DNA of 53,268 bases from Escherichia phage Ecp_YSF: the sequence record OR327751.1; one strand, 5' to 3'. Below the pieces are notes generated by a model that saw only the letters and a list, made by a program, of their open reading frames with translations, was not told the origin of the DNA and made no database searches. A program made the position numbers and the translations under genes. This document shows positions 14,848 to 24,661 of the stretch, one piece after another. Every line of letters starts with the position of its first letter. Position 1 is the first letter of the stretch.

Positions 14848-15321
14848 ATGCCAAAGCAAGATTGGTCTATTAATACTGGTGAAGCATATGCAGGTGAACA
14901 ATATGGCCTGGCTACCACCAACTCCCAGCGCCTGACCTACGTTGCCGAAGAAGAAATGGCAAACTTTGGTCTGGCTGTTGTTCAAGGTACAGCTTCTAAT
15001 CAGGTTAAACCTGGTATTGGTTCTGATGGCACTGTTCTGGGCATTACCATGCGCCAGATTAATATCGAATCCGCTACTCGTCCTGGTGACGGTACTGTTG
15101 CAATCAAAGTTGGCTGGCCTCTGGGTGTTATGCTGTCTGGCCCAATCATGGTCAAACTGAAAACTGCAATCACCGACAAGAACATTGGCGTATCCACTAA
15201 AGGCGAATTTGGCGGTGTTGGTGCTGGGTATACTAAAGCAACCAACCTGACTGCCCTGCGTTATCCGGCTTCCGCTGGCGATGTTGTCCCGGTCATGATT
15301 AACGTAGTCCCAAAGCCGTAA
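14848..15321 (+). CDS. Small head protein (putative decoration protein), zero-frame product
   Basis: 157 aa, Gly/Val-rich, immediately upstream of major capsid gene; ends 4 nt after a CCCAAAG slippery heptamer. Confidence 0.5.
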   Translation: MPKQDWSINTGEAYAGEQYGLATTNSQRLTYVAEEEMANFGLAVVQGTASNQVKPGIGSDGTVLGITMRQINIESATRPGDGTVAIKVGWPLGVMLSGPIMVKLKTAITDKNIGVSTKGEFGGVGAGYTKATNLTALRYPASAGDVVPVMINVVPKP

Positions 15322-15614
15322 CGCCACCTCCAGCCCCTACAGTATCTGCTGTAGCTGGAGTTGTAACGGCTGATGCGTCTTCTACTGATGCCACTGTAAC
15401 TGTAGACAAGCTGTTCAAGTTTGGGAACTCTACAGCAACAGATTATAACTTCGCTGTTACACCTCCTGTGACTGGTGTTTCTGTGGCGGCAAACGGCACT
15501 GTGACTGTCTTGAATGAGACGACCACAGAGACTTCTGCTACAATTAAGGCAACAAACAAAACAACCTCTAGCGTAACTGCGACCAAAGAAATTACCATTA
15601 CGCCGAAGGCTTAA
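15309..15614 (+). other. Predicted -1 programmed frameshift site and Ig-like C-terminal extension of the upstream head protein
   Basis: Heptamer C_CCA_AAG at 15309-15315; -1 frame open from 15303 to TAA at 15612-15614 with no usable start codon; encodes about 100 aa rich in T/S/V/A. Hairpin CCAGC..TACAG/CTGTA..GCTGG at 15330-15358. Confidence 0.5.
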
Positions 15615-18433: not shown

Positions 18434-19882
18434 ATGTCAATCCCAATTTCTGACTTAGTTCAGGTTGATATCGCAATCTCCCCGAACGCCATTGCGACTG
18501 ATGGTTTTGGGCCATTGCTCTTCATGAGCAAAGAGTTTGTACCATCTGTTGATATATATCCAGTTCGTTCTTACACCAGTTTGAAAGAAGTTCTGGCAGA
18601 TTTCCCTGGTGGCGAGATTGCCAAAGCTGCTACCACTTGGTACTCGCAGAAACCGACTCCGAAGACTTTCCTGGTCGGCGCTATCAAGAATGATACAATG
18701 ACTCCAGCAACTCCTGCCACTGTTACTGCTGCATCTGCTGGTGTACTGTCAACGATTAAGCTGGAAACTGCTGCAACCCTACAGTTGAGTGTTAGTGGTG
18801 TTCAGTATGTCACTGACCCGATTAACTTCTCTTCTGCCGGAGATTTTGAAGAAGTTGCAACCCTGGTGACTACTGCACTGTCTTCTGTTGGTGCTGGCGT
18901 AACTGTTACTCAAGATGCTGGCAAGTTTAAGCTGACTACCTCTGCAACTGGCGCTAACGCAACTATCAGCAACGTTGGTGGTAAAGTTGGGGAAGTGTTG
19001 AAGCTGCAATCTTCCGACAATGCAGTCACTGTTGATGGCAAGAACGAGTTGTCTATTTCCTCCGACCTGGCTGCCATTGCGGATGCTCCATTTAACTTCT
19101 TCTATGTGGGCCTTGACCGCAAGTATCGTGGCAAGTTTACTCCGGTAGACAACCAAATGTCTGTGGCGAAGTGGTGCGAAGCATCCAGCAAAGTATTTGG
19201 CTGGGGCGACAGCGACAAGAATATTCTTATCAACGGCACTAACAACAGTTTCCGCCGCGCTAAGAACCAGAACCTGCGTAACACTCTGTGTGTTTACGAT
19301 GCTTCTACAAATGGTGACGAATATCCGGAAATTTCTATTCTGGGTCGTGCATCAACTGTCAACTTTAATGTTGCAAACTCTGTCCTCACTCTGGCATATA
19401 AGAAAGGTCCAGGTGTTGCCACTGCTGACTTATCTTCTGGCCAGTTGAGCGCACTACTTTCTTGTGGCGGTAACGCATTCATCTCCGTTGCTGGCAACGT
19501 AATGTTCTACAACGGCCGTATGGCTGACGGTACGTGGTTCGACTCCGTACAAGGTGTTGAATGGCTTACCCAGAAAGTTCGACTGAATGTGTTCAACTTG
19601 TTCTACACCTCCAATACCAAGATTCCTTGGACAGACACTGGTGTAGCAATGGTTAACCAGCAAGTAACCCTGGCGCTCGAACTCGCTAAGACTAACGGCC
19701 TCATTGCCCCTGGCTACGATAACGAAGGCGTCTTCTACCCAGAAGGCTACAAAGTTATCTCCACTCCGTTAGAACTCTTGCAGTCGCAGAAGGGTGAACG
19801 TATTTGGGAAGGTACTTCCTTTATTGCTATCGGTTCCGGTGCAATCCAGGGTGCTGTAATCTCTGGCAACTTCATTCAGTAA
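18434..19882 (+). CDS. Tail sheath protein
   Basis: 482 aa, first gene of the sheath-tube-chaperone-tape measure block. Confidence 0.5.
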   Translation: MSIPISDLVQVDIAISPNAIATDGFGPLLFMSKEFVPSVDIYPVRSYTSLKEVLADFPGGEIAKAATTWYSQKPTPKTFLVGAIKNDTMTPATPATVTAASAGVLSTIKLETAATLQLSVSGVQYVTDPINFSSAGDFEEVATLVTTALSSVGAGVTVTQDAGKFKLTTSATGANATISNVGGKVGEVLKLQSSDNAVTVDGKNELSISSDLAAIADAPFNFFYVGLDRKYRGKFTPVDNQMSVAKWCEASSKVFGWGDSDKNILINGTNNSFRRAKNQNLRNTLCVYDASTNGDEYPEISILGRASTVNFNVANSVLTLAYKKGPGVATADLSSGQLSALLSCGGNAFISVAGNVMFYNGRMADGTWFDSVQGVEWLTQKVRLNVFNLFYTSNTKIPWTDTGVAMVNQQVTLALELAKTNGLIAPGYDNEGVFYPEGYKVISTPLELLQSQKGERIWEGTSFIAIGSGAIQGAVISGNFIQ

Positions 19883-19891
19883 GGGTGAACA

Positions 19892-20347
19892 GTGAAGCAA
19901 TATTCGTTTTATAATACAGACCTCCTGATTGACGGTGCTCGTGTAGACGGTTTTCAGGCAGGGCAATCTGTAATTACGGCACGCTACAACGTGCCACAAC
20001 ATGTTCCTGTAATGGATGCTTACGGCAAACTTGCTGTAGCAACCACTGCTGACCAGTCTGGGGTTATTACTTTCCCTCTGCTGCAAACGGCAGACTGGAA
20101 CGAAATTCTGTATCAACGTGCGCAGCTTACTCGTGCAACTGGCCTGTCTGGTAATAAATCCCTGTGGGAACCTTTGCAGATTCAGTTGGTAGATAAGATG
20201 GGCGACGTTCTGGTTAACGGTGTTAACGGTGCAATCCTGCAACAGCCTGCTATTGTTCGTGGTGTAACCTTTACATCCAACATGTGGGCTATCTTTGTAG
20301 AGCGCCTCACCATCGTAACTGGCCAGTATCCAGAAATCGGCGTATAA
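19892..20347 (+). CDS. Tail tube protein
   Basis: 151 aa immediately after sheath; GTG start with upstream AGGGTG. Confidence 0.45.
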   Translation: MKQYSFYNTDLLIDGARVDGFQAGQSVITARYNVPQHVPVMDAYGKLAVATTADQSGVITFPLLQTADWNEILYQRAQLTRATGLSGNKSLWEPLQIQLVDKMGDVLVNGVNGAILQQPAIVRGVTFTSNMWAIFVERLTIVTGQYPEIGV

Positions 20348-20362
20348 CATTAAGGTAAGAGC

Positions 20363-20821
20363 ATGGCTTGTGAACTTCGTCAACGCGAGTTACAAGCCGA
20401 CTCTGGTGATGTAGTCTTGGTTGGTACTCGTCAATTGAGTGCCAGCCAAGCTCTTGACCTACAAGTCGAGCTTGTTCAGAAACTTGGAACTTCAATCTTC
20501 CCATTCGTTGAGAATAAATATAACTTTGCAGACATTATTTATTTAATGCAGCAAGGTGGGACGAGTAACGAAGTAACAGAATTAATTAAACGTGTAGTGT
20601 GTATGGCAACCATTGATGGTGTCGAAGTTACTCCACGCACTATGCAAATGAAATACAACGGCAACTTGATGCTTATGCACCATGTGTTTGCATTTGTTTT
20701 GGAATCGAACTTCCTTGATTTTTTCAAGCAAGGGCTCGAACTCAACGAACGCAGACGATTGGAGGCGGTGGAAGCATCCAAGATGGCCGAGCAGAAGAAT
20801 TCGAGTCCGGAAACGATTTAA
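20363..20821 (+). CDS. Tail assembly chaperone (G-like), zero-frame product
   Basis: 152 aa directly upstream of tape-measure gene; contains a T_TTT_TTC slippery heptamer. Confidence 0.55.
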   Translation: MACELRQRELQADSGDVVLVGTRQLSASQALDLQVELVQKLGTSIFPFVENKYNFADIIYLMQQGGTSNEVTELIKRVVCMATIDGVEVTPRTMQMKYNGNLMLMHHVFAFVLESNFLDFFKQGLELNERRRLEAVEASKMAEQKNSSPETI

Positions 20822-20997
20822 CTGCAAAGTTCCCGGAAATAAAATACTTCTTGCACCGTCCTGTAATAGAGGACAGTTCACTCTGTTCTCTTAAAGAGTT
20901 ACAAGATGGGACCTACTCTATTATGGATTTGTTGACCTTCCACGCAATACTCGATTTGCGTAACGAATTAAAACCTAAAGAAGAAGACAATGGCTAA
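20719..20997 (+). other. Predicted -1 frameshift extension of tail assembly chaperone (GT-like product)
   Basis: Heptamer T_TTT_TTC at 20719-20725; -1 frame is open for 93 codons from 20719 to TAA at 20995-20997, ending at the tape-measure start. Confidence 0.5.
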
Positions 20998-23900
20998 TAA
21001 CATAAAAGATTTGATGAGAATGTCCGAAGCCGAATTGATTGGCTTAGGCGCTCAATATGGTCTGTCGTTCAATCCAGGTATGCGCAAACGAGATATGGCA
21101 CAGCAACTTGAATCAAGTGCTGCATCTGGTTGGATGGAAACAAATTCGCAGCTTATGGAAGAAACCCATACAGAAGATGATGGCATCTCTTATGGCACTT
21201 CCGACATGATTTCAGACTCAGCCCACATTGCACAGATGATTTCTGGCGCTGGGCTGACTGAAACATTCCATGCTGCAATGAACGGTCCAAGTCACCATGT
21301 AGAAGCTATTCATGCCTACATGGAGAAATTAGGTGTATCCGCCGATGATGTGTGGATGCACATGCCCAAAGCAAACCCGAACAAACCGGAAGGTCATTGG
21401 GGAATGCTTAATGCGTACATGCGTGATACGCTGACAGGCCATCAAGATATAATGCCAGAGCTTCCTGGACATTATTCGGGCGACATTATGGGCGAGTATT
21501 CCACAAACCGTGGAGATATTGCCAAGTCGTTCGGCTATCTTGCCCACATGTATGTTGACCGTGAACAATACGACAACCCAGACCGCTATGCACGAGATGT
21601 TTATCGTGTAGCCAAACGTTTAGAATCAGAATTGCCGCAAAACTTCCGAGAAGTTGCTGCGGTATCTGCAATGAATGTAGGAAATAAGTCGGGGCCAAAA
21701 CTTTCATACATGGATTCATTGCCTAAACTTGGCTCTGAATCAATTGTTAGTGGTATCCAACACCCTCGACAGCCACTTAACGCATCTGGTTTACCACTTG
21801 GTTCATTTGGCAGCGGTATTAATGCCGAATACTCATTATCTGCATCCTTGTCTGGCTCGCCAGGCTGGTCTGATGTAAGTAGGACTCTGTACCAAGATGT
21901 TTCTAGCGTAGTTAAGTCTGCGGCAAAGGTCTATTCTGGTGATTCTGAAAGAGGAATGAACGCGTACCGCACTCAATCTTCTGACAGAGATTTGATTCTT
22001 GATTCTGCTTCCCGCTATGCAGACATTATAGATGTTCGTTCTGGGTATGAGAATCTTAAGAAAGATATTGGTGACGACCCTCGCTACTCTGGTGCATCCA
22101 TCCGTGGCGTACTTGAGAATGCTCACCAATATAATGAGGCAGAGGTAAGCAAGACATTTGACCCTGCTGAACGCTTAAGAAACACTGAACCTGCCGAACT
22201 AAGCCCTTCAACAGAGTTTATTACGCAACTCGATTCACCAACGAGTTGGAACTCTGCTCGCGCTCGTCGTGAGAGTATTGCTATATCTAACTTGGACTCT
22301 GCTCCACAACCAGCTCCGAAAGAAGGCCCAATCCATTATCACAACATGGAACAGGGAACTCAGGAATGGTTGGACTTCCGCAAACAATACGACATTACTG
22401 GCTCCACTGTTGGTTCGTTTCTTGGTAACAATGAATACACCCGACCTTGGGCTGCAATGATTGATAAAATTGGCCTACAACGCGGAAAGGGGCCAAGTGA
22501 ATTTACTAAAAGAATGTTCGAAGCAGGTCATCGGACGGAAGAAATTGCTCGTAACCGTGTCGCCAAAGAGTTTGGATTCGATATCGAGCAAGCTGGCGCA
22601 ATAACAAATGACAATTATCCGTCGTTCATGTATTCTCCAGATGGCCTTATCGGTGATGACGCGATTTGGGAACACAAGAATCCTGAAAGGGCTAAAAAGT
22701 TTTCTAATCTCTCTGCTGGCGAGCATAAGGACTATTTCGACCAAATTCAATTTGGCTTGCTTGTATCTGGCCGTAGTCGTGCACTGTTCTCTCAGACAAT
22801 CGGGGACAAGACGGTATCTGAGTGGATTGAGAAAGACGAGGGATGGTACGAGCGCAACAAAGATAAGATTGATTCTACTATTGGGCGTCTCAATGCTGGT
22901 CGAAAGTTTGTTGAAGATAATCCAGACTTACCTAATGATGAGTTAATCAAGGGTGCTCGTGCTGCAATGACTGGCGATGGCATCTGGAAAGATGTTAAGC
23001 AAAGGTCGACTCGTGGATATTCTGCCGCAGCTGGAACACCTGATGACCCATTCATAGGCAACCGCACTGATGCTGGAATTGGCGAGGCCACGACTTCTGC
23101 CGTAGGCTCTGACAGCACGACTGGCAATGACTCGATGGCAGTATCTGTCAAGAAAGGTATTCTTGCTGCACAGGAAGAAAACAAACTGCGCGGACAAGAT
23201 GCCGACTTTGGTGGAAATGATGGTCGTGGTGGCGGTGGTGGCTTCTGGGATACATTTGATGCCAGCAGTTATGGTATCAGCGGAGGTGGTTCTGGTGGCG
23301 GTGGTCGTGGTGGTTGGAGAGTTGGCGGTAGCTTCTCAGATGACTTCGGTCGTGCTGGTGGGGCATTGGCTGCTGGCGTAGCTGGTGGCAGTATTGGTTC
23401 ATTATCCAATGGCGCAATGAATGCCCTCATGATGACTCCTTGGGGTCGTGTAGCTGGCATGGCTATTGGTGCTGCCCAGATTGGAAACGAAGCTCTGGAA
23501 GGTCTGAACGACTTCTATGGCAATTCTTTAGATGCTGGTGTTAATAATCCTAACGAGTATTCTTCCATGACTCAGGGCATGGAAATGTTGGGACTTAACT
23601 CACAACAAGCCAATCGACTCAATCAAACCACACATAGTGCCTATAACACCCTCCTAAATGGCGACCCCAGCGGCGCTGTGAACATCGTTCAGGGAACCCG
23701 TGGTCTTATCACAATTGGCGACATTCGTGCGGCACAGGGCGACCCTGTGGCCCTAGCGCGGATAATGCGTGAGCGTGGTCAGGAACGGGGTTGGAGTCAG
23801 GCCCGTATTGCTGGTGCAATGCAAATGGCTGGTCTGGATGGTATGGCTCGTGCCTATGACCGTACAGAATACAGCATGGGCGAGGCTGAGGCGAACGTTA

Positions 23901-24661
23901 AGCGCGGAGCCGACTCAAACTATGCCGAAGGCGTTGCACAGCTAGGAATCGCGCAGACGGAGCGTGCTGGCGTACTGCCTGGATACGCTGTTCCGCAAGC
24001 TGCAATTTCATACGGCAGCACCTTTATTGAGGCAGGTGGTGACGCAGCCAGAGTGATGCGTATGACCTCCAACGGTACAGCCGATGCAGCACGTAATGTT
24101 TATGACTTTATCGCGGGAGAAGAGTCAGGGAACCGCGATTTTAACGCAGATGGTTCGGTAGTTACATCGCCAACTGGTGCTAAAGGTCGTATGCAAGTTC
24201 TTGATTCAACTTCTCGTGACCCTGGCTTTGGTGTTCGTCCTGCCAAAGATAACTCACTTGAAGAACGTGCTCGTGTTGGTCGTGATTATTACGATGCAAT
24301 GCTTAAGCGATATAATGGTGACGCTGAGAAGGCTATGGCGGCGTATACAGATGGTGCCGGGACTGTTGATGATGCTATCAACAAACATGGAACCGACTGG
24401 CTGAACGCTGTTCCACTACAGGCACAGAACCGTGTCAAGAAGTACCGCGAATGGGCTTCTCAGGGAGATTCTATTGCAGAAGGTGCAACTGGATTCACCA
24501 GAAACGGACTGTCCTATGGTCAGACACAGCCCACCATAGTTAACGTTGAAGTCAAAGCTACCGTAAACAACAAACAAGCGTCTGCAACCGTGTCAACTCC
24601 GAACGGTCAAACTGTTACCCAAACAATCAACATGGGTAATGGTGCAATGGAACGCAGATAA
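20990..24661 (+). CDS. Tape-measure-like protein with embedded YqaJ-like PD-(D/E)xK nuclease domain and C-terminal lytic transglycosylase domain
   Basis: 1223 aa after chaperone. Central block QGTQEWLDFRKQYDITGSTVGSFLG ... EAGHRTEE ... SPDGLIGDDAIWEHKNPE (about nt 22340-22800); Gly-rich hydrophobic stretch about nt 23200-23450; SLT-like ESGNRDF ... GAKGRMQVLDSTSRD (about nt 24100-24420). Confidence 0.6.
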   Translation: MANNIKDLMRMSEAELIGLGAQYGLSFNPGMRKRDMAQQLESSAASGWMETNSQLMEETHTEDDGISYGTSDMISDSAHIAQMISGAGLTETFHAAMNGPSHHVEAIHAYMEKLGVSADDVWMHMPKANPNKPEGHWGMLNAYMRDTLTGHQDIMPELPGHYSGDIMGEYSTNRGDIAKSFGYLAHMYVDREQYDNPDRYARDVYRVAKRLESELPQNFREVAAVSAMNVGNKSGPKLSYMDSLPKLGSESIVSGIQHPRQPLNASGLPLGSFGSGINAEYSLSASLSGSPGWSDVSRTLYQDVSSVVKSAAKVYSGDSERGMNAYRTQSSDRDLILDSASRYADIIDVRSGYENLKKDIGDDPRYSGASIRGVLENAHQYNEAEVSKTFDPAERLRNTEPAELSPSTEFITQLDSPTSWNSARARRESIAISNLDSAPQPAPKEGPIHYHNMEQGTQEWLDFRKQYDITGSTVGSFLGNNEYTRPWAAMIDKIGLQRGKGPSEFTKRMFEAGHRTEEIARNRVAKEFGFDIEQAGAITNDNYPSFMYSPDGLIGDDAIWEHKNPERAKKFSNLSAGEHKDYFDQIQFGLLVSGRSRALFSQTIGDKTVSEWIEKDEGWYERNKDKIDSTIGRLNAGRKFVEDNPDLPNDELIKGARAAMTGDGIWKDVKQRSTRGYSAAAGTPDDPFIGNRTDAGIGEATTSAVGSDSTTGNDSMAVSVKKGILAAQEENKLRGQDADFGGNDGRGGGGGFWDTFDASSYGISGGGSGGGGRGGWRVGGSFSDDFGRAGGALAAGVAGGSIGSLSNGAMNALMMTPWGRVAGMAIGAAQIGNEALEGLNDFYGNSLDAGVNNPNEYSSMTQGMEMLGLNSQQANRLNQTTHSAYNTLLNGDPSGAVNIVQGTRGLITIGDIRAAQGDPVALARIMRERGQERGWSQARIAGAMQMAGLDGMARAYDRTEYSMGEAEANVKRGADSNYAEGVAQLGIAQTERAGVLPGYAVPQAAISYGSTFIEAGGDAARVMRMTSNGTADAARNVYDFIAGEESGNRDFNADGSVVTSPTGAKGRMQVLDSTSRDPGFGVRPAKDNSLEERARVGRDYYDAMLKRYNGDAEKAMAAYTDGAGTVDDAINKHGTDWLNAVPLQAQNRVKKYREWASQGDSIAEGATGFTRNGLSYGQTQPTIVNVEVKATVNNKQASATVSTPNGQTVTQTINMGNGAMERR

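What the first reader, a model, noticed from the sequence alone, without database searches (positions are those of the whole stretch)
20363..20997. G/GT-type -1 frameshift in the tail assembly chaperone gene
Slippery heptamer T_TTT_TTC at 20719-20725 lies just after the -1 frame's last stop (TGA 20716-20718). That frame is then open for 93 codons up to TAA at 20995-20997, i.e. exactly to the tape-measure start. This matches the conserved chaperone frameshift of long-tailed phages and supports the sheath / tube / chaperone / tape-measure assignment.
Basis: partly seen in the sequence, partly recalled or inferred. Interest (0 to 1): 0.45.

Follow-up and report, generated by a model that had tools for sequence, protein, structure and literature searches.

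The report
Tail chaperone gene's programmed -1 frameshift
The phage's tail assembly chaperone gene carries a conserved slippery TTTTTTC site where a fraction of ribosomes very probably slip back one base to make a longer fusion protein; this trick is well known in long-tailed phages, so the finding is real but ordinary, and mainly corrects gene annotation in this phage family.

Summary
Gene 20363..20821 (152 aa) is a tail assembly chaperone (Pfam PF21822, PHROG 11820). It lies between the sheath/tube genes and the 1223-aa tape-measure-like gene. Its only in-frame X_XXY_YYZ heptamer, T_TTT_TTC (20719-20725), directly follows the last -1-frame stop. That frame then stays open to TAA 20995-20997, overlapping the next gene's ATG (20990).

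The window is a Chaseviridae myovirus, 99.4% identical to Escherichia phage PO103-1 over this stretch. In 68 distinct sequence contexts from 91 loci (G identity down to about 25%):
- The heptamer is T_TTT_TTC in 58, T_TTT_TTT in 9 and G_TTT_TTC in 1.
- It is held at synonymous positions (Asp = GAT 55/55; first Phe = TTT 68/68).
- The -1 frame runs a median of 90 codons, against 8 for the +1 frame.

The T-only segment is under purifying selection (dN/dS 0.05-0.15) and has no conserved start codon. In relatives it matches Pfam DUF6889.

No downstream RNA structure and no upstream SD-like element is supported in this phage. None of the 24 GenBank/RefSeq records I checked annotates the slippage, and no fused protein appears in the protein database.

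Verdict: a genuine lambda G/GT-type -1 frameshift. It is a new, unannotated member of a very well known kind, and of low interest.

The parts
19892..20347 (+). Tail tube gene (151 aa), immediately upstream. Context for the chaperone's position.
   Evidence: PHROG 280 E=2e-30 and a weak Pfam KPP10_Orf10 hit. The homologue is annotated 'tail tube protein' in PO103-1, PYps23T, 4HA13 and PP101.
20363..20821 (+). Zero-frame chaperone gene ('G', 152 aa).
   Evidence: Pfam PF21822 Phage_TAC_15 E=3.6e-15 (57 bits, cut-off 22) and PHROG 11820 'tail assembly chaperone' E=2.7e-58. AlphaFold model pLDDT 87; its named matches among viral structure predictions are mostly tail assembly chaperones.
20719..20725 (+). 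Slippery heptamer T_TTT_TTC: X = third base of Asp119 (GAT), then Phe120 TTT and Phe121 TTC.
   Evidence: Conserved in phase in 67 of 68 distinct contexts (58 TTTTTTC, 9 TTTTTTT); the remaining one is GTTTTTC. Synonymous positions are fixed: GAT 55/55 Asp against a 55% background, and first Phe TTT 68/68 against 43%.
20725..20997 (+). -1-frame 'T' segment (90 codons plus TAA) read after the slip. GT = 20363..20725 joined to 20725..20997, 211 aa.
   Evidence: The -1 frame is open from the heptamer to a stop at the next gene's start in all 21 Chaseviridae loci and in all 70 IMG/VR loci where the contig allows. PHROG 4364 E=9e-18.
20726..20821 (+). Dual-coding overlap (32 codons), read in both frames.
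   Evidence: Synonymous differences are depressed here (pS 0.04-0.13) compared with 0.3-0.7 in the flanking G-only and T-only parts of close pairs.
20818..20970 (+). Conserved core of the T domain (L..FPEIKYFLHRPVIEDSSLC..L.DG.YS..DL..FH.ILDLR.EL), DUF6889-like.
   Evidence: Invariant columns in alignment A4. 17 of 18 family members match Pfam PF21829 DUF6889, best E=1.8e-9; the window's own copy scores only E=0.049. T-only dN/dS is 0.05-0.15.
20990..24661 (+). Tape-measure-like gene (1223 aa). Its ATG overlaps the T stop (ATGGCTAA).
   Evidence: The homologue is annotated 'tape measure protein' in PYps23T, 4HA13 and PP101. Has an SLT domain and an embedded YqaJ-like domain. The tape-measure role is inferred from position and those annotations.

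Best explanation
This is a lambda G/GT-type programmed -1 ribosomal frameshift in the tail assembly chaperone gene of a Chaseviridae myovirus.

Most ribosomes read 20363..20821 and make the 152-aa chaperone G. A minority slip with tRNA-Phe on TTT (P site) and tRNA-Phe on TTC (A site). Both tRNAs move back one base onto TTT TTT (20719-20724), where they can still pair fully. Decoding then resumes at CAA (20725) in the -1 frame and ends at TAA 20995-20997. The result is the 211-aa fusion GT (...LDFF-QARARTQ...).

By analogy with lambda (inferred), many copies of G and a few of GT coat the tape-measure protein through their shared G part. The -1-encoded T domain (DUF6889-like) recruits the tube protein. 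Both then leave the finished tail.

Shown here: the signal, its phase, its conservation at synonymous sites, the conserved and selected -1 reading frame, and the lack of an independent start. Inferred: that the shift is ribosomal, its efficiency (probably low, since no stimulator was found in this phage), and the binding partners.
For: - Sequence anatomy is as described.
- Chaperone identity: Pfam PF21822 above its cut-off and PHROG 11820. Gene order is sheath, tube, chaperone, tape-measure-like. The predicted fold matches viral tail assembly chaperones in BFVD, with 11 hits at E<=1e-3 and named hits that include 'Pre-tape measure frameshift protein G'.
- The fused protein matches in two frames in all 108 phage records found by tblastn.
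- In 21 Chaseviridae loci, 20 have in-phase T_TTT_TTC and one has G_TTT_TTC. The -1 frame is always open from 18 codons or fewer upstream of the site to the tape-measure start.
- All 70 further IMG/VR loci show the same layout. Across the 68 distinct contexts, the -1 frame runs a median of 90 codons against 8 for the +1 frame.
- Synonymous-site fixation of the heptamer: GAT 55/55, and T retained when the preceding residue is Ser or Ala; first Phe TTT 68/68.
- T-only region dN/dS is 0.05-0.15, as low as in G. Synonymous change is suppressed in the overlap.
- No conserved start codon precedes the conserved T core. SSEM1 has no ATG/GTG/TTG anywhere in that frame.
- H_HH.U_UU.Y heptamers are among the most efficient in E. 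coli, and U_UU.U_UU.C shifts at more than 0.1% even without a stimulator (PMC4066793).
- G/GT frameshifting is widely conserved in long-tailed phages (PMC5009743).
Against: - There is no direct evidence for the GT protein or its amount.
- No stimulatory element is supported in this phage. The fold of 20719-20830 is no better than shuffles (z=0.45) and consensus folds have about zero energy.
- Family-wide downstream z (-1.15) equals that of control positions in the G and tube genes (-1.03, -0.97).
- There is no upstream SD-like sequence in the window and no Rfam match.
- RNA polymerase slippage on the T6 run would give the same protein, and sequence alone cannot exclude it.
- One of the two peptide patterns used to retrieve IMG/VR loci contains the FF motif, which biases that sample toward TTY-TTY. 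It does not bias the synonymous positions. 17 contexts carry the FF-independent motif, and all have the heptamer.
- Fold similarity to the solved HK97 chaperone is weak (E=1.1).
Confidence: 0.88

Rival explanations
1. The same GT fusion is made, but by transcriptional slippage. RNA polymerase adds one extra U in the T6 run, and standard translation of that minority mRNA gives ...LDFFQARAR....
For: - A U6-to-U7 insertion gives exactly the same protein (sequence logic).
- Selection for T at the position before the run, and for TTT as the first Phe codon, lengthens the homopolymer as well as completing the heptamer. That evidence therefore does not discriminate.
- No ribosomal stimulator was found.
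Against: - The run is only 6 T (5 in Faunus, 7 in 9 distant contexts). Efficient bacterial RNA polymerase slippage is reported for runs of 9 A or T, matching the 9-10 bp RNA-DNA hybrid (PMC5009743).
- In 59 of 68 distinct contexts (58 TTTTTTC and GTTTTTC in Faunus) the second Phe codon is TTC, not TTT. Selection has therefore not pushed the run longer.
- The motif is a perfect in-phase tandem-slippage heptamer of a class measured as efficient in E. coli.
Confidence: 0.07
2. There is no recoding. The conserved C-terminal part is a separate small protein started at an internal start codon (for example TTG 20851, 48 aa). Several GenBank records annotate it this way.
For: Small separate ORFs are annotated here in phiEcoM-GJ1 gp61, PM1_050, Myduc_065, pAh6-C gp9, BUCT696 gp53, 2KOFFS_0042 and PP101_66. 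PHROG 4364 is built from such ORFs.
Against: - No start codon is conserved. SSEM1 has no ATG/GTG/TTG at all in the -1 frame after the heptamer, 4HA13 has only an ATG 24 codons from the stop, and Y2 only a TTG 32 codons from the stop.
- The conserved core (L..FP.I.YFL.RP) begins upstream of the window's TTG 20851.
- Almost none of the candidate starts has an SD-like sequence.
- The frame is open back to the heptamer in every genome, with the last stop a median of 5 codons upstream. A separately initiated ORF would not need that.
Confidence: 0.03
3. Chance or artefact. The open frame is accidental, or a homopolymer sequencing error has split one gene in two.
For: Homopolymer runs are error-prone in some sequencing chemistries. 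A single genome gives only P of about 0.02 x 0.02 for the open frame.
Against: - The same two-frame layout occurs in 91 independently sequenced loci, 68 of them distinct.
- The zero-frame tail of G after the site is itself conserved (KQGLE.NEQRRLEA...), and synonymous change is suppressed in the overlap, so both frames are read.
- No single-frame fused protein exists among 26 database homologues; all are G-length.
Confidence: 0.01

Closest known systems
Phage lambda G / GT tail assembly chaperones (-1 frameshift at G_GGA_AAG)
   Same: - A small chaperone gene sits directly upstream of the tape-measure gene.
- An in-phase slippery heptamer lies near its 3' end.
- A -1 ORF without its own start ends at the tape-measure gene.
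- Two products share the N-terminal part.
- In lambda, the G:GT ratio is about 30:1, G binds the tape measure and T binds the major tail protein (PMC5009743).
   Different: - The heptamer differs: T_TTT_TTC, with both slipping tRNAs being tRNA-Phe.
- This is a contractile-tailed phage with a sheath gene.
- No detectable sequence similarity to lambda G or T was sought or found. The Pfam families are different (PF21822 and DUF6889).
- Ratio and binding partners are untested here.
Phage P2 E / E+E' (the myovirus counterpart)
   Same: A myovirus chaperone pair made by a -1 frameshift upstream of the tape-measure gene. Efficiency in P2-like phages is 2- to 3-fold higher than in lambda (PMC5009743). 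From memory, unverified here: the P2 site is also a T-run heptamer (TTTTTTG).
   Different: P2 belongs to a different phage family with a different gene order context. Homology was not tested here.
TAC-N / TAC-NC locus of Vandenendeviridae (Pakpunavirus) and Andersonviridae, with a conserved GTTTTT motif (PMC12846349)
   Same: - These are myoviruses sharing the DUF3383-type sheath and KPP10-type tube genes.
- The downstream ORF is routinely mis-annotated as a separate hypothetical gene.
[quoted passage not shown]
- The -1 frame is open in every genome.
- The Faunus variant G_TTT_TTC contains exactly that GTTTTT motif.
   Different: Those are different virus families. In Chaseviridae the motif is the full tandem heptamer T_TTT_TTC. 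Homology of the chaperones between these families was not tested here.
E. coli dnaX -1 frameshift (A_AAA_AAG with an upstream SD-like element and a downstream hairpin)
   Same: Tandem -1 slippage on a heptamer in a bacterial ribosome. In distant relatives of this gene, a GGAGGT lies about 12 nt upstream of the heptamer at dnaX-like spacing (22 of 26 contexts; Glu codon GAG 26/26).
   Different: In the window neither an upstream SD-like element nor a supported downstream hairpin is present. In dnaX the frameshift product is shorter; here it is longer.

Membership tests
G/GT-type tail assembly chaperone with programmed -1 frameshift (lambda G/GT paradigm) | The gene lies between the major tail (tube) gene and the tape-measure gene | tested here: met
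   Order is sheath 18434..19882, tube 19892..20347, chaperone 20363..20821, then the 1223-aa tape-measure-like gene 20990..24661. The tape-measure annotation comes from relatives.
G/GT-type tail assembly chaperone with programmed -1 frameshift (lambda G/GT paradigm) | The protein belongs to a recognised tail assembly chaperone family | tested here: met
   Pfam PF21822 Phage_TAC_15 at 57 bits against a cut-off of 22. PHROG 11820 E=2.7e-58.
G/GT-type tail assembly chaperone with programmed -1 frameshift (lambda G/GT paradigm) | The fold resembles known tail assembly chaperones | tested here: inconclusive
   The model is good (pLDDT 87). BFVD gives 11 matches at E<=1e-3 with TM about 0.5, and the named ones are mostly tail assembly chaperones. 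Against solved structures there is no hit at E<=1e-3, and the HK97 chaperone 2ob9 scores only E=1.1. The PDB sequence profile search found nothing.
G/GT-type tail assembly chaperone with programmed -1 frameshift (lambda G/GT paradigm) | [quoted passage not shown] | tested here: met
   T_TTT_TTC at 20719-20725 is the only such heptamer in the gene. Its class is efficient in E. coli (PMC4066793).
G/GT-type tail assembly chaperone with programmed -1 frameshift (lambda G/GT paradigm) | The -1 ORF has no start of its own and extends from the slip site to about the tape-measure start | tested here: met
   Open from 20719 to TAA 20995-20997, overlapping ATG 20990. No conserved start codon or SD.
G/GT-type tail assembly chaperone with programmed -1 frameshift (lambda G/GT paradigm) | Slip site and -1 ORF are conserved in relatives, and the -1 ORF is under protein-level selection | tested here: met
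   68 distinct contexts from 91 loci. Synonymous positions of the heptamer are fixed. T-only dN/dS is 0.05-0.15.
G/GT-type tail assembly chaperone with programmed -1 frameshift (lambda G/GT paradigm) | Two products, G and GT, are made at a fixed ratio, both are needed for tail assembly, and both are absent from virions | not testable with these tools
   Needs proteomics and genetics. See the decisive next steps.
G/GT-type tail assembly chaperone with programmed -1 frameshift (lambda G/GT paradigm) | The G part binds the tape-measure protein and the T part binds the tube protein | not testable with these tools
   Inferred from lambda (PMC5009743).
Pfam PF21829 DUF6889 (for the T segment) | Score above the family's gathering threshold | tested here: inconclusive
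   The window's T segment scores 13.8 bits (E=0.049) against a cut-off of 23.9. 17 of 18 homologous T segments match at E<=1, best 1.8e-9. The family relationship is likely, but this copy alone does not pass.

The most novel reading that the evidence does not exclude
The fusion may not be made by the ribosome at all. RNA polymerase could slip on the short T6 run, and the invariant T-run across this very broad chaperone family (Phage_TAC_15 plus DUF6889) would then reflect selection for a transcriptional rather than a translational recoding signal. A milder variant: the shift is ribosomal but has no stimulator in Chaseviridae, whereas distant relatives have evolved a dnaX-like upstream SD element.
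Probability: 0.1. Interest if true: 0.4.

Novelty: new member of a known kind. Interest (0 to 1): 0.2.

Why it matters
The value is mainly practical.
- **Annotation.** None of the 24 Chaseviridae GenBank/RefSeq records inspected annotates the fusion. Several call the T segment a separate hypothetical protein, and PO103-1 has no chaperone CDS at all. The protein database holds only the short form.
- **Function for two families.** Recognising the frameshift gives a function to PHROG 4364 and, probably, to Pfam DUF6889 as the T domain of a tail chaperone.
- **Locus assignment.** It firms up the sheath, tube, chaperone and tape-measure assignment in this family of candidate therapy and biocontrol phages.
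- **Data for frameshift-site biology.** An invariant T_TTT_TTY site held over very deep divergence with no common stimulator is a clean natural data set.

It does not change what is known about how tails are built.

Tried and rejected
- **Downstream stimulatory RNA structure.** The window's minimum-energy fold contains a 9-bp stem, GGGCUCGAA (20732-20740) with UUCGAGUCC (20800-20808), starting 6 nt after the heptamer. The fold is no better than shuffles (z=0.45, and 1.61 for the 65-nt window). RNAalifold consensus energies are about 0, with almost no covariation in either subfamily. Family-wide z-scores downstream equal those at control positions. Rejected as unsupported.
- **Invariant 'AGGG' 6 nt after the heptamer.** It is invariant in all 21 Chaseviridae loci but disappears in distant relatives. 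It is most simply a dual-coding constraint (Gly GGG in frame 0, Arg AGG in frame -1).
- **Upstream SD-like stimulator.** Absent in the window and its close relatives.
- **Rfam.** Nothing in 20300-21100 at E<=1.
- **PDB by sequence profile.** No meaningful hit.
- **Independent initiation of the T ORF.** Rejected.
- **Literature.** Four full-text searches found no paper describing this frameshift in Chaseviridae or phiEcoM-GJ1. Absence from that library is not proof of absence.
- **Fused or single-frame homologues in the protein database.** None found. That search is limited by its word index.

Full report
**1. The observation**

- ORF 20363..20821 (152 aa) contains TTTTTTC at 20719-20725, in the phase GA_T TTT TTC (Asp119-Phe120-Phe121).
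- The -1 frame has a TGA at 20716-20718. It is then open for 92 sense codons to TAA 20995-20997, which overlaps the ATG (20990) of the next gene, a 1223-aa ORF.
- The zero frame stops at 20819-20821.
- A -1 slip gives a 211-aa protein with the junction ...LDFF-QARARTQ....

It is the only in-phase X_XXY_YYZ heptamer in the gene. The -1 frame carries 10 stops in the 119 codons before the site and none in the 92 after it.

Two resampling tests each give a probability of 0.02 that the -1 frame stays open. One resamples synonymous codons of the same protein over the 96-nt overlap. The other shuffles the following 174 nt.

In a whole-window control, 39 in-phase heptamers were found in a crude ORF set. 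Only this one and one other open a -1 frame that runs well beyond the gene's own stop.

**2. What the gene is**

The 152-aa product matches Pfam PF21822 (Phage_TAC_15; 57 bits, cut-off 22) and PHROG 11820 'tail assembly chaperone' (E=2.7e-58).

Its neighbours fit the expected order:
- Upstream are a DUF3383/PHROG 205 tail sheath (18434..19882) and a PHROG 280/KPP10-type tube protein (19892..20347).
- Downstream is the 1223-aa protein that relatives annotate as tape measure.

An AlphaFold model of G built on 25 sequences is confident (pLDDT 87, pTM 0.77). Its matches among predicted viral structures are mostly proteins named tail assembly chaperone, tape measure chaperone or 'pre-tape measure frameshift protein G', at E of 1e-6 to 1e-1 and TM about 0.5. 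Similarity to solved structures is weak: the HK97 chaperone 2ob9 scores E=1.1. The fold evidence is therefore supportive but not decisive.

**3. Where the window comes from**

The region is 99.4% identical to Escherichia phage PO103-1 (Chaseviridae, Cleopatravirinae). It is about 90-98% identical to a set of E. coli, Shigella and Yersinia phages.

**4. Comparative test**

*Isolated phages.* tblastn with the fused 211-aa protein finds 108 phage records. The match is split into two pieces (two frames) in every listed record, down to about 35% identity.

I fetched 20 loci covering both subfamilies: Carltongylesvirus, Sabourvirus, Suwonvirus, Loessnervirus, Faunusvirus, Myducvirus, Pahsextavirus, Yushanvirus and others.
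- In 20 of the 21 sequences (window included) the in-phase heptamer is T_TTT_TTC. Erwinia phage Faunus has G_TTT_TTC.
- In all 21 the -1 frame opens 0-18 codons before the heptamer. It runs to a stop that abuts or overlaps the start of the tape-measure-like gene.
- The fusions are 206-215 aa (175 aa from the shorter start annotated in pAh6-C).

The C-terminal ~55 residues of the T part form a conserved domain: L..FP.I.YFL.RP.I....C....L.DG..S..DL...H..LDL...L. 17 of 18 T segments match Pfam DUF6889, best E=1.8e-9. The window's own copy scores only E=0.049.

*Uncultivated relatives.* A scan of IMG/VR with the G alignment returned 70 further loci, many far more distant (G identity 23-35%). Every one has an in-phase T_TTT_TTC or T_TTT_TTT (one, the IMG/VR copy of Faunus, has G_TTT_TTC). 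Wherever the contig allows, the -1 frame is open 42-88 codons past the G stop.

*Summary over 68 distinct contexts.*
- The -1 frame from slip site to stop has a median of 90 codons, against 8 for the +1 frame.
- The last -1 stop lies a median of 5 codons upstream of the heptamer.

*Caveat.* One of the two peptide patterns used for retrieval contains 'FF', so TTY-TTY is partly ascertained. The synonymous positions are not. The 17 contexts that carry the other, FF-independent motif all have the heptamer.

**5. Selection on the signal itself**

- The base before the two Phe codons is T in 67 of 68 contexts, whatever the residue: GAT 55, AGT 5, TCT 4, GCT 3.
- Asp is GAT 55/55 against a 55% background.
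- The first Phe codon is TTT 68/68 against a 43% background.

These are synonymous positions, so the heptamer (or the T run) is itself under selection. It is not a by-product of the FF dipeptide.

**6. The -1 ORF is translated, and not from its own start**

Nei-Gojobori estimates for 18 pairs give dN/dS of 0.05-0.15 for the T-only segment read in the -1 frame, as low as for the G-only part. In the overlap, synonymous differences fall to 0.04-0.13 in close pairs, against 0.3-0.7 in the flanks. That is the expected signature of dual coding.

No start codon is conserved upstream of the T core:
- SSEM1 has no ATG/GTG/TTG anywhere in that frame after the heptamer.
- 4HA13 has only an ATG 24 codons from the stop.
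- Y2 has only a TTG 32 codons from the stop.
- SD-like sequences are almost absent.

The small separate ORFs annotated in several records are therefore fragments of the T part.

**7. Mechanism**

E. coli's tRNA-Phe reads both UUU and UUC (established knowledge). After a -1 shift on U_UUU_UUC both tRNAs face UUU and can pair fully.

Measurements in E. coli place H_HH.U_UU.Y among the most efficient heptamer classes. They list U_UU.U_UU.C among motifs that shift at more than 0.1% without any stimulator. They rank the A-site tetramers A_AA.G >> U_UU.C > U_UU.U (PMC4066793). That ranking also makes the Faunus variant G_UUU_UUC plausible.

I found no stimulator in this phage:
- The local fold is not better than shuffles.
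- Consensus folds have no energy or covariation.
- The family-wide downstream z-score (-1.15) equals that of controls inside the G and tube genes.
- There is no SD-like element upstream.
- Rfam finds nothing.

Distant relatives do carry GGAGGT about 12 nt upstream (22 of 26 contexts; Glu codon GAG 26/26 against a 41% background). This resembles the dnaX arrangement and suggests lineage-specific tuning. It remains a lead, not a result.

With no stimulator, a low GT fraction is expected. That fits the lambda paradigm, with its 30:1 ratio of G to GT (PMC5009743).

**8. Rivals**

- *Transcriptional slippage* on the T run would yield the identical protein and cannot be excluded from sequence. However, the run is only 6 T. 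Efficient bacterial polymerase slippage is reported for runs of 9 (PMC5009743). Selection has also kept TTC rather than TTT as the second Phe codon in 59 of 68 contexts.
- *Independent initiation* is contradicted by the data in section 6.
- *Chance or sequencing artefact* is contradicted by the data in sections 4 to 6.

**9. Novelty**

G/GT-type frameshifting is textbook for long-tailed phages (PMC5009743). A 2025 paper makes the same comparative argument for the neighbouring Vandenendeviridae and Andersonviridae, using a GTTTTT motif (PMC12846349).

For Chaseviridae I found no description in the searchable literature. There is no joined CDS in any of 24 records inspected. There is no fused protein among database homologues, all 26 of which are G-length.

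It is thus an unannotated new member of a well-known kind: useful for annotation, not surprising.

**10. Verdict**

Confidence is about 0.9 that a GT fusion is made by a -1 shift at 20719-20725, and most of that weight is on the ribosomal mechanism. Interest is low (0.2).

Noticed in passing
window 14848-15614 (+): A second candidate -1 frameshift. The 157-aa gene 14848..15321 (Pfam Phage_cement PF22758, E=1.4e-16) lies just upstream of the major capsid gene. It has an in-phase C_CCA_AAG at 15309-15315, 4 codons before its stop. The -1 frame opens at 15303 and runs 99 codons to TAA 15612-15614, across a stretch with no other + strand ORF of 50 aa or more that has a start. The extension is Thr/Val-rich and looks Ig-like to me, but has no Pfam hit. 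tblastn with the fusion matches in two pieces in E. coli, Yersinia, Erwinia and Pantoea relatives; in other relatives only the N-terminal part matches.
   Followed up: partly
window 20990-24661 (+); YqaJ-like about 22364-22774, SLT about 24161-24391: The tape-measure-like protein carries an embedded YqaJ/RecE-like exonuclease domain (aa 459-595, Pfam E=2e-12; PHROG 434 E=4e-19) as well as a C-terminal SLT lytic transglycosylase domain. Relatives annotate this gene variously as tape measure, tail fiber, exonuclease, endonuclease or 'T4 gp5 analog'. A nuclease-fold domain inside a tape-measure-position protein is unusual and was not examined further.
   Followed up: no
L055-L090 (IMG/VR loci), about 12 nt upstream of the heptamer: In distant relatives of the chaperone, the conserved L-E-V codons spell GGAGGT 12 nt upstream of the slip site (22 of 26 contexts; Glu always GAG against a 41% background). 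This is the spacing of the SD-like stimulator of dnaX. It is absent in the window and its close relatives.
   Followed up: partly
window 20731-20734, and the same position in L001-L020: 'AGGG' 6 nt after the heptamer is invariant in all 21 Chaseviridae loci. This includes the A at a zero-frame third codon position, and Gly is always GGG. It is lost in distant relatives, so it is probably a dual-coding constraint (Gly in frame 0, Arg AGG in frame -1), but it is stricter than coding alone requires.
   Followed up: partly
L001 (NC_079175.1, Escherichia phage PO103-1): The RefSeq record of the closest relative has no CDS at all for the chaperone gene between 'tail tube protein' and the next gene. 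It labels the 1223-aa protein 'tail tube initiator protein', and the tube CDS starts 120 codons later than in relatives. It also has no annotated feature over the cement-protein locus.
   Followed up: no
window 20988-20997, and homologous positions in L002, L006, L007, L008, L012, L014, L016, L018: The T stop and the next gene's start overlap as AATGGCTAA in both subfamilies. Other relatives use TGATG or TAAATG. This arrangement is typical of translational coupling, although only the frameshifted minority of ribosomes would arrive in that frame.
   Followed up: no
P0026 (Hafnia alvei, contig of 4.8 Mb): A G-type homologue (49% identity, PF21822) is encoded on a chromosome-sized Hafnia alvei contig. 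This suggests a prophage or tail-derived element with this chaperone family, although Chaseviridae are regarded as virulent (my own background knowledge, not checked here).
   Followed up: no
PP952070.1 (hit H24): A record named Staphylococcus phage Pel53 (host S. hyicus) matches this Gram-negative phage family at 73% nucleotide identity over the tube-chaperone region. The host assignment looks doubtful.
   Followed up: no
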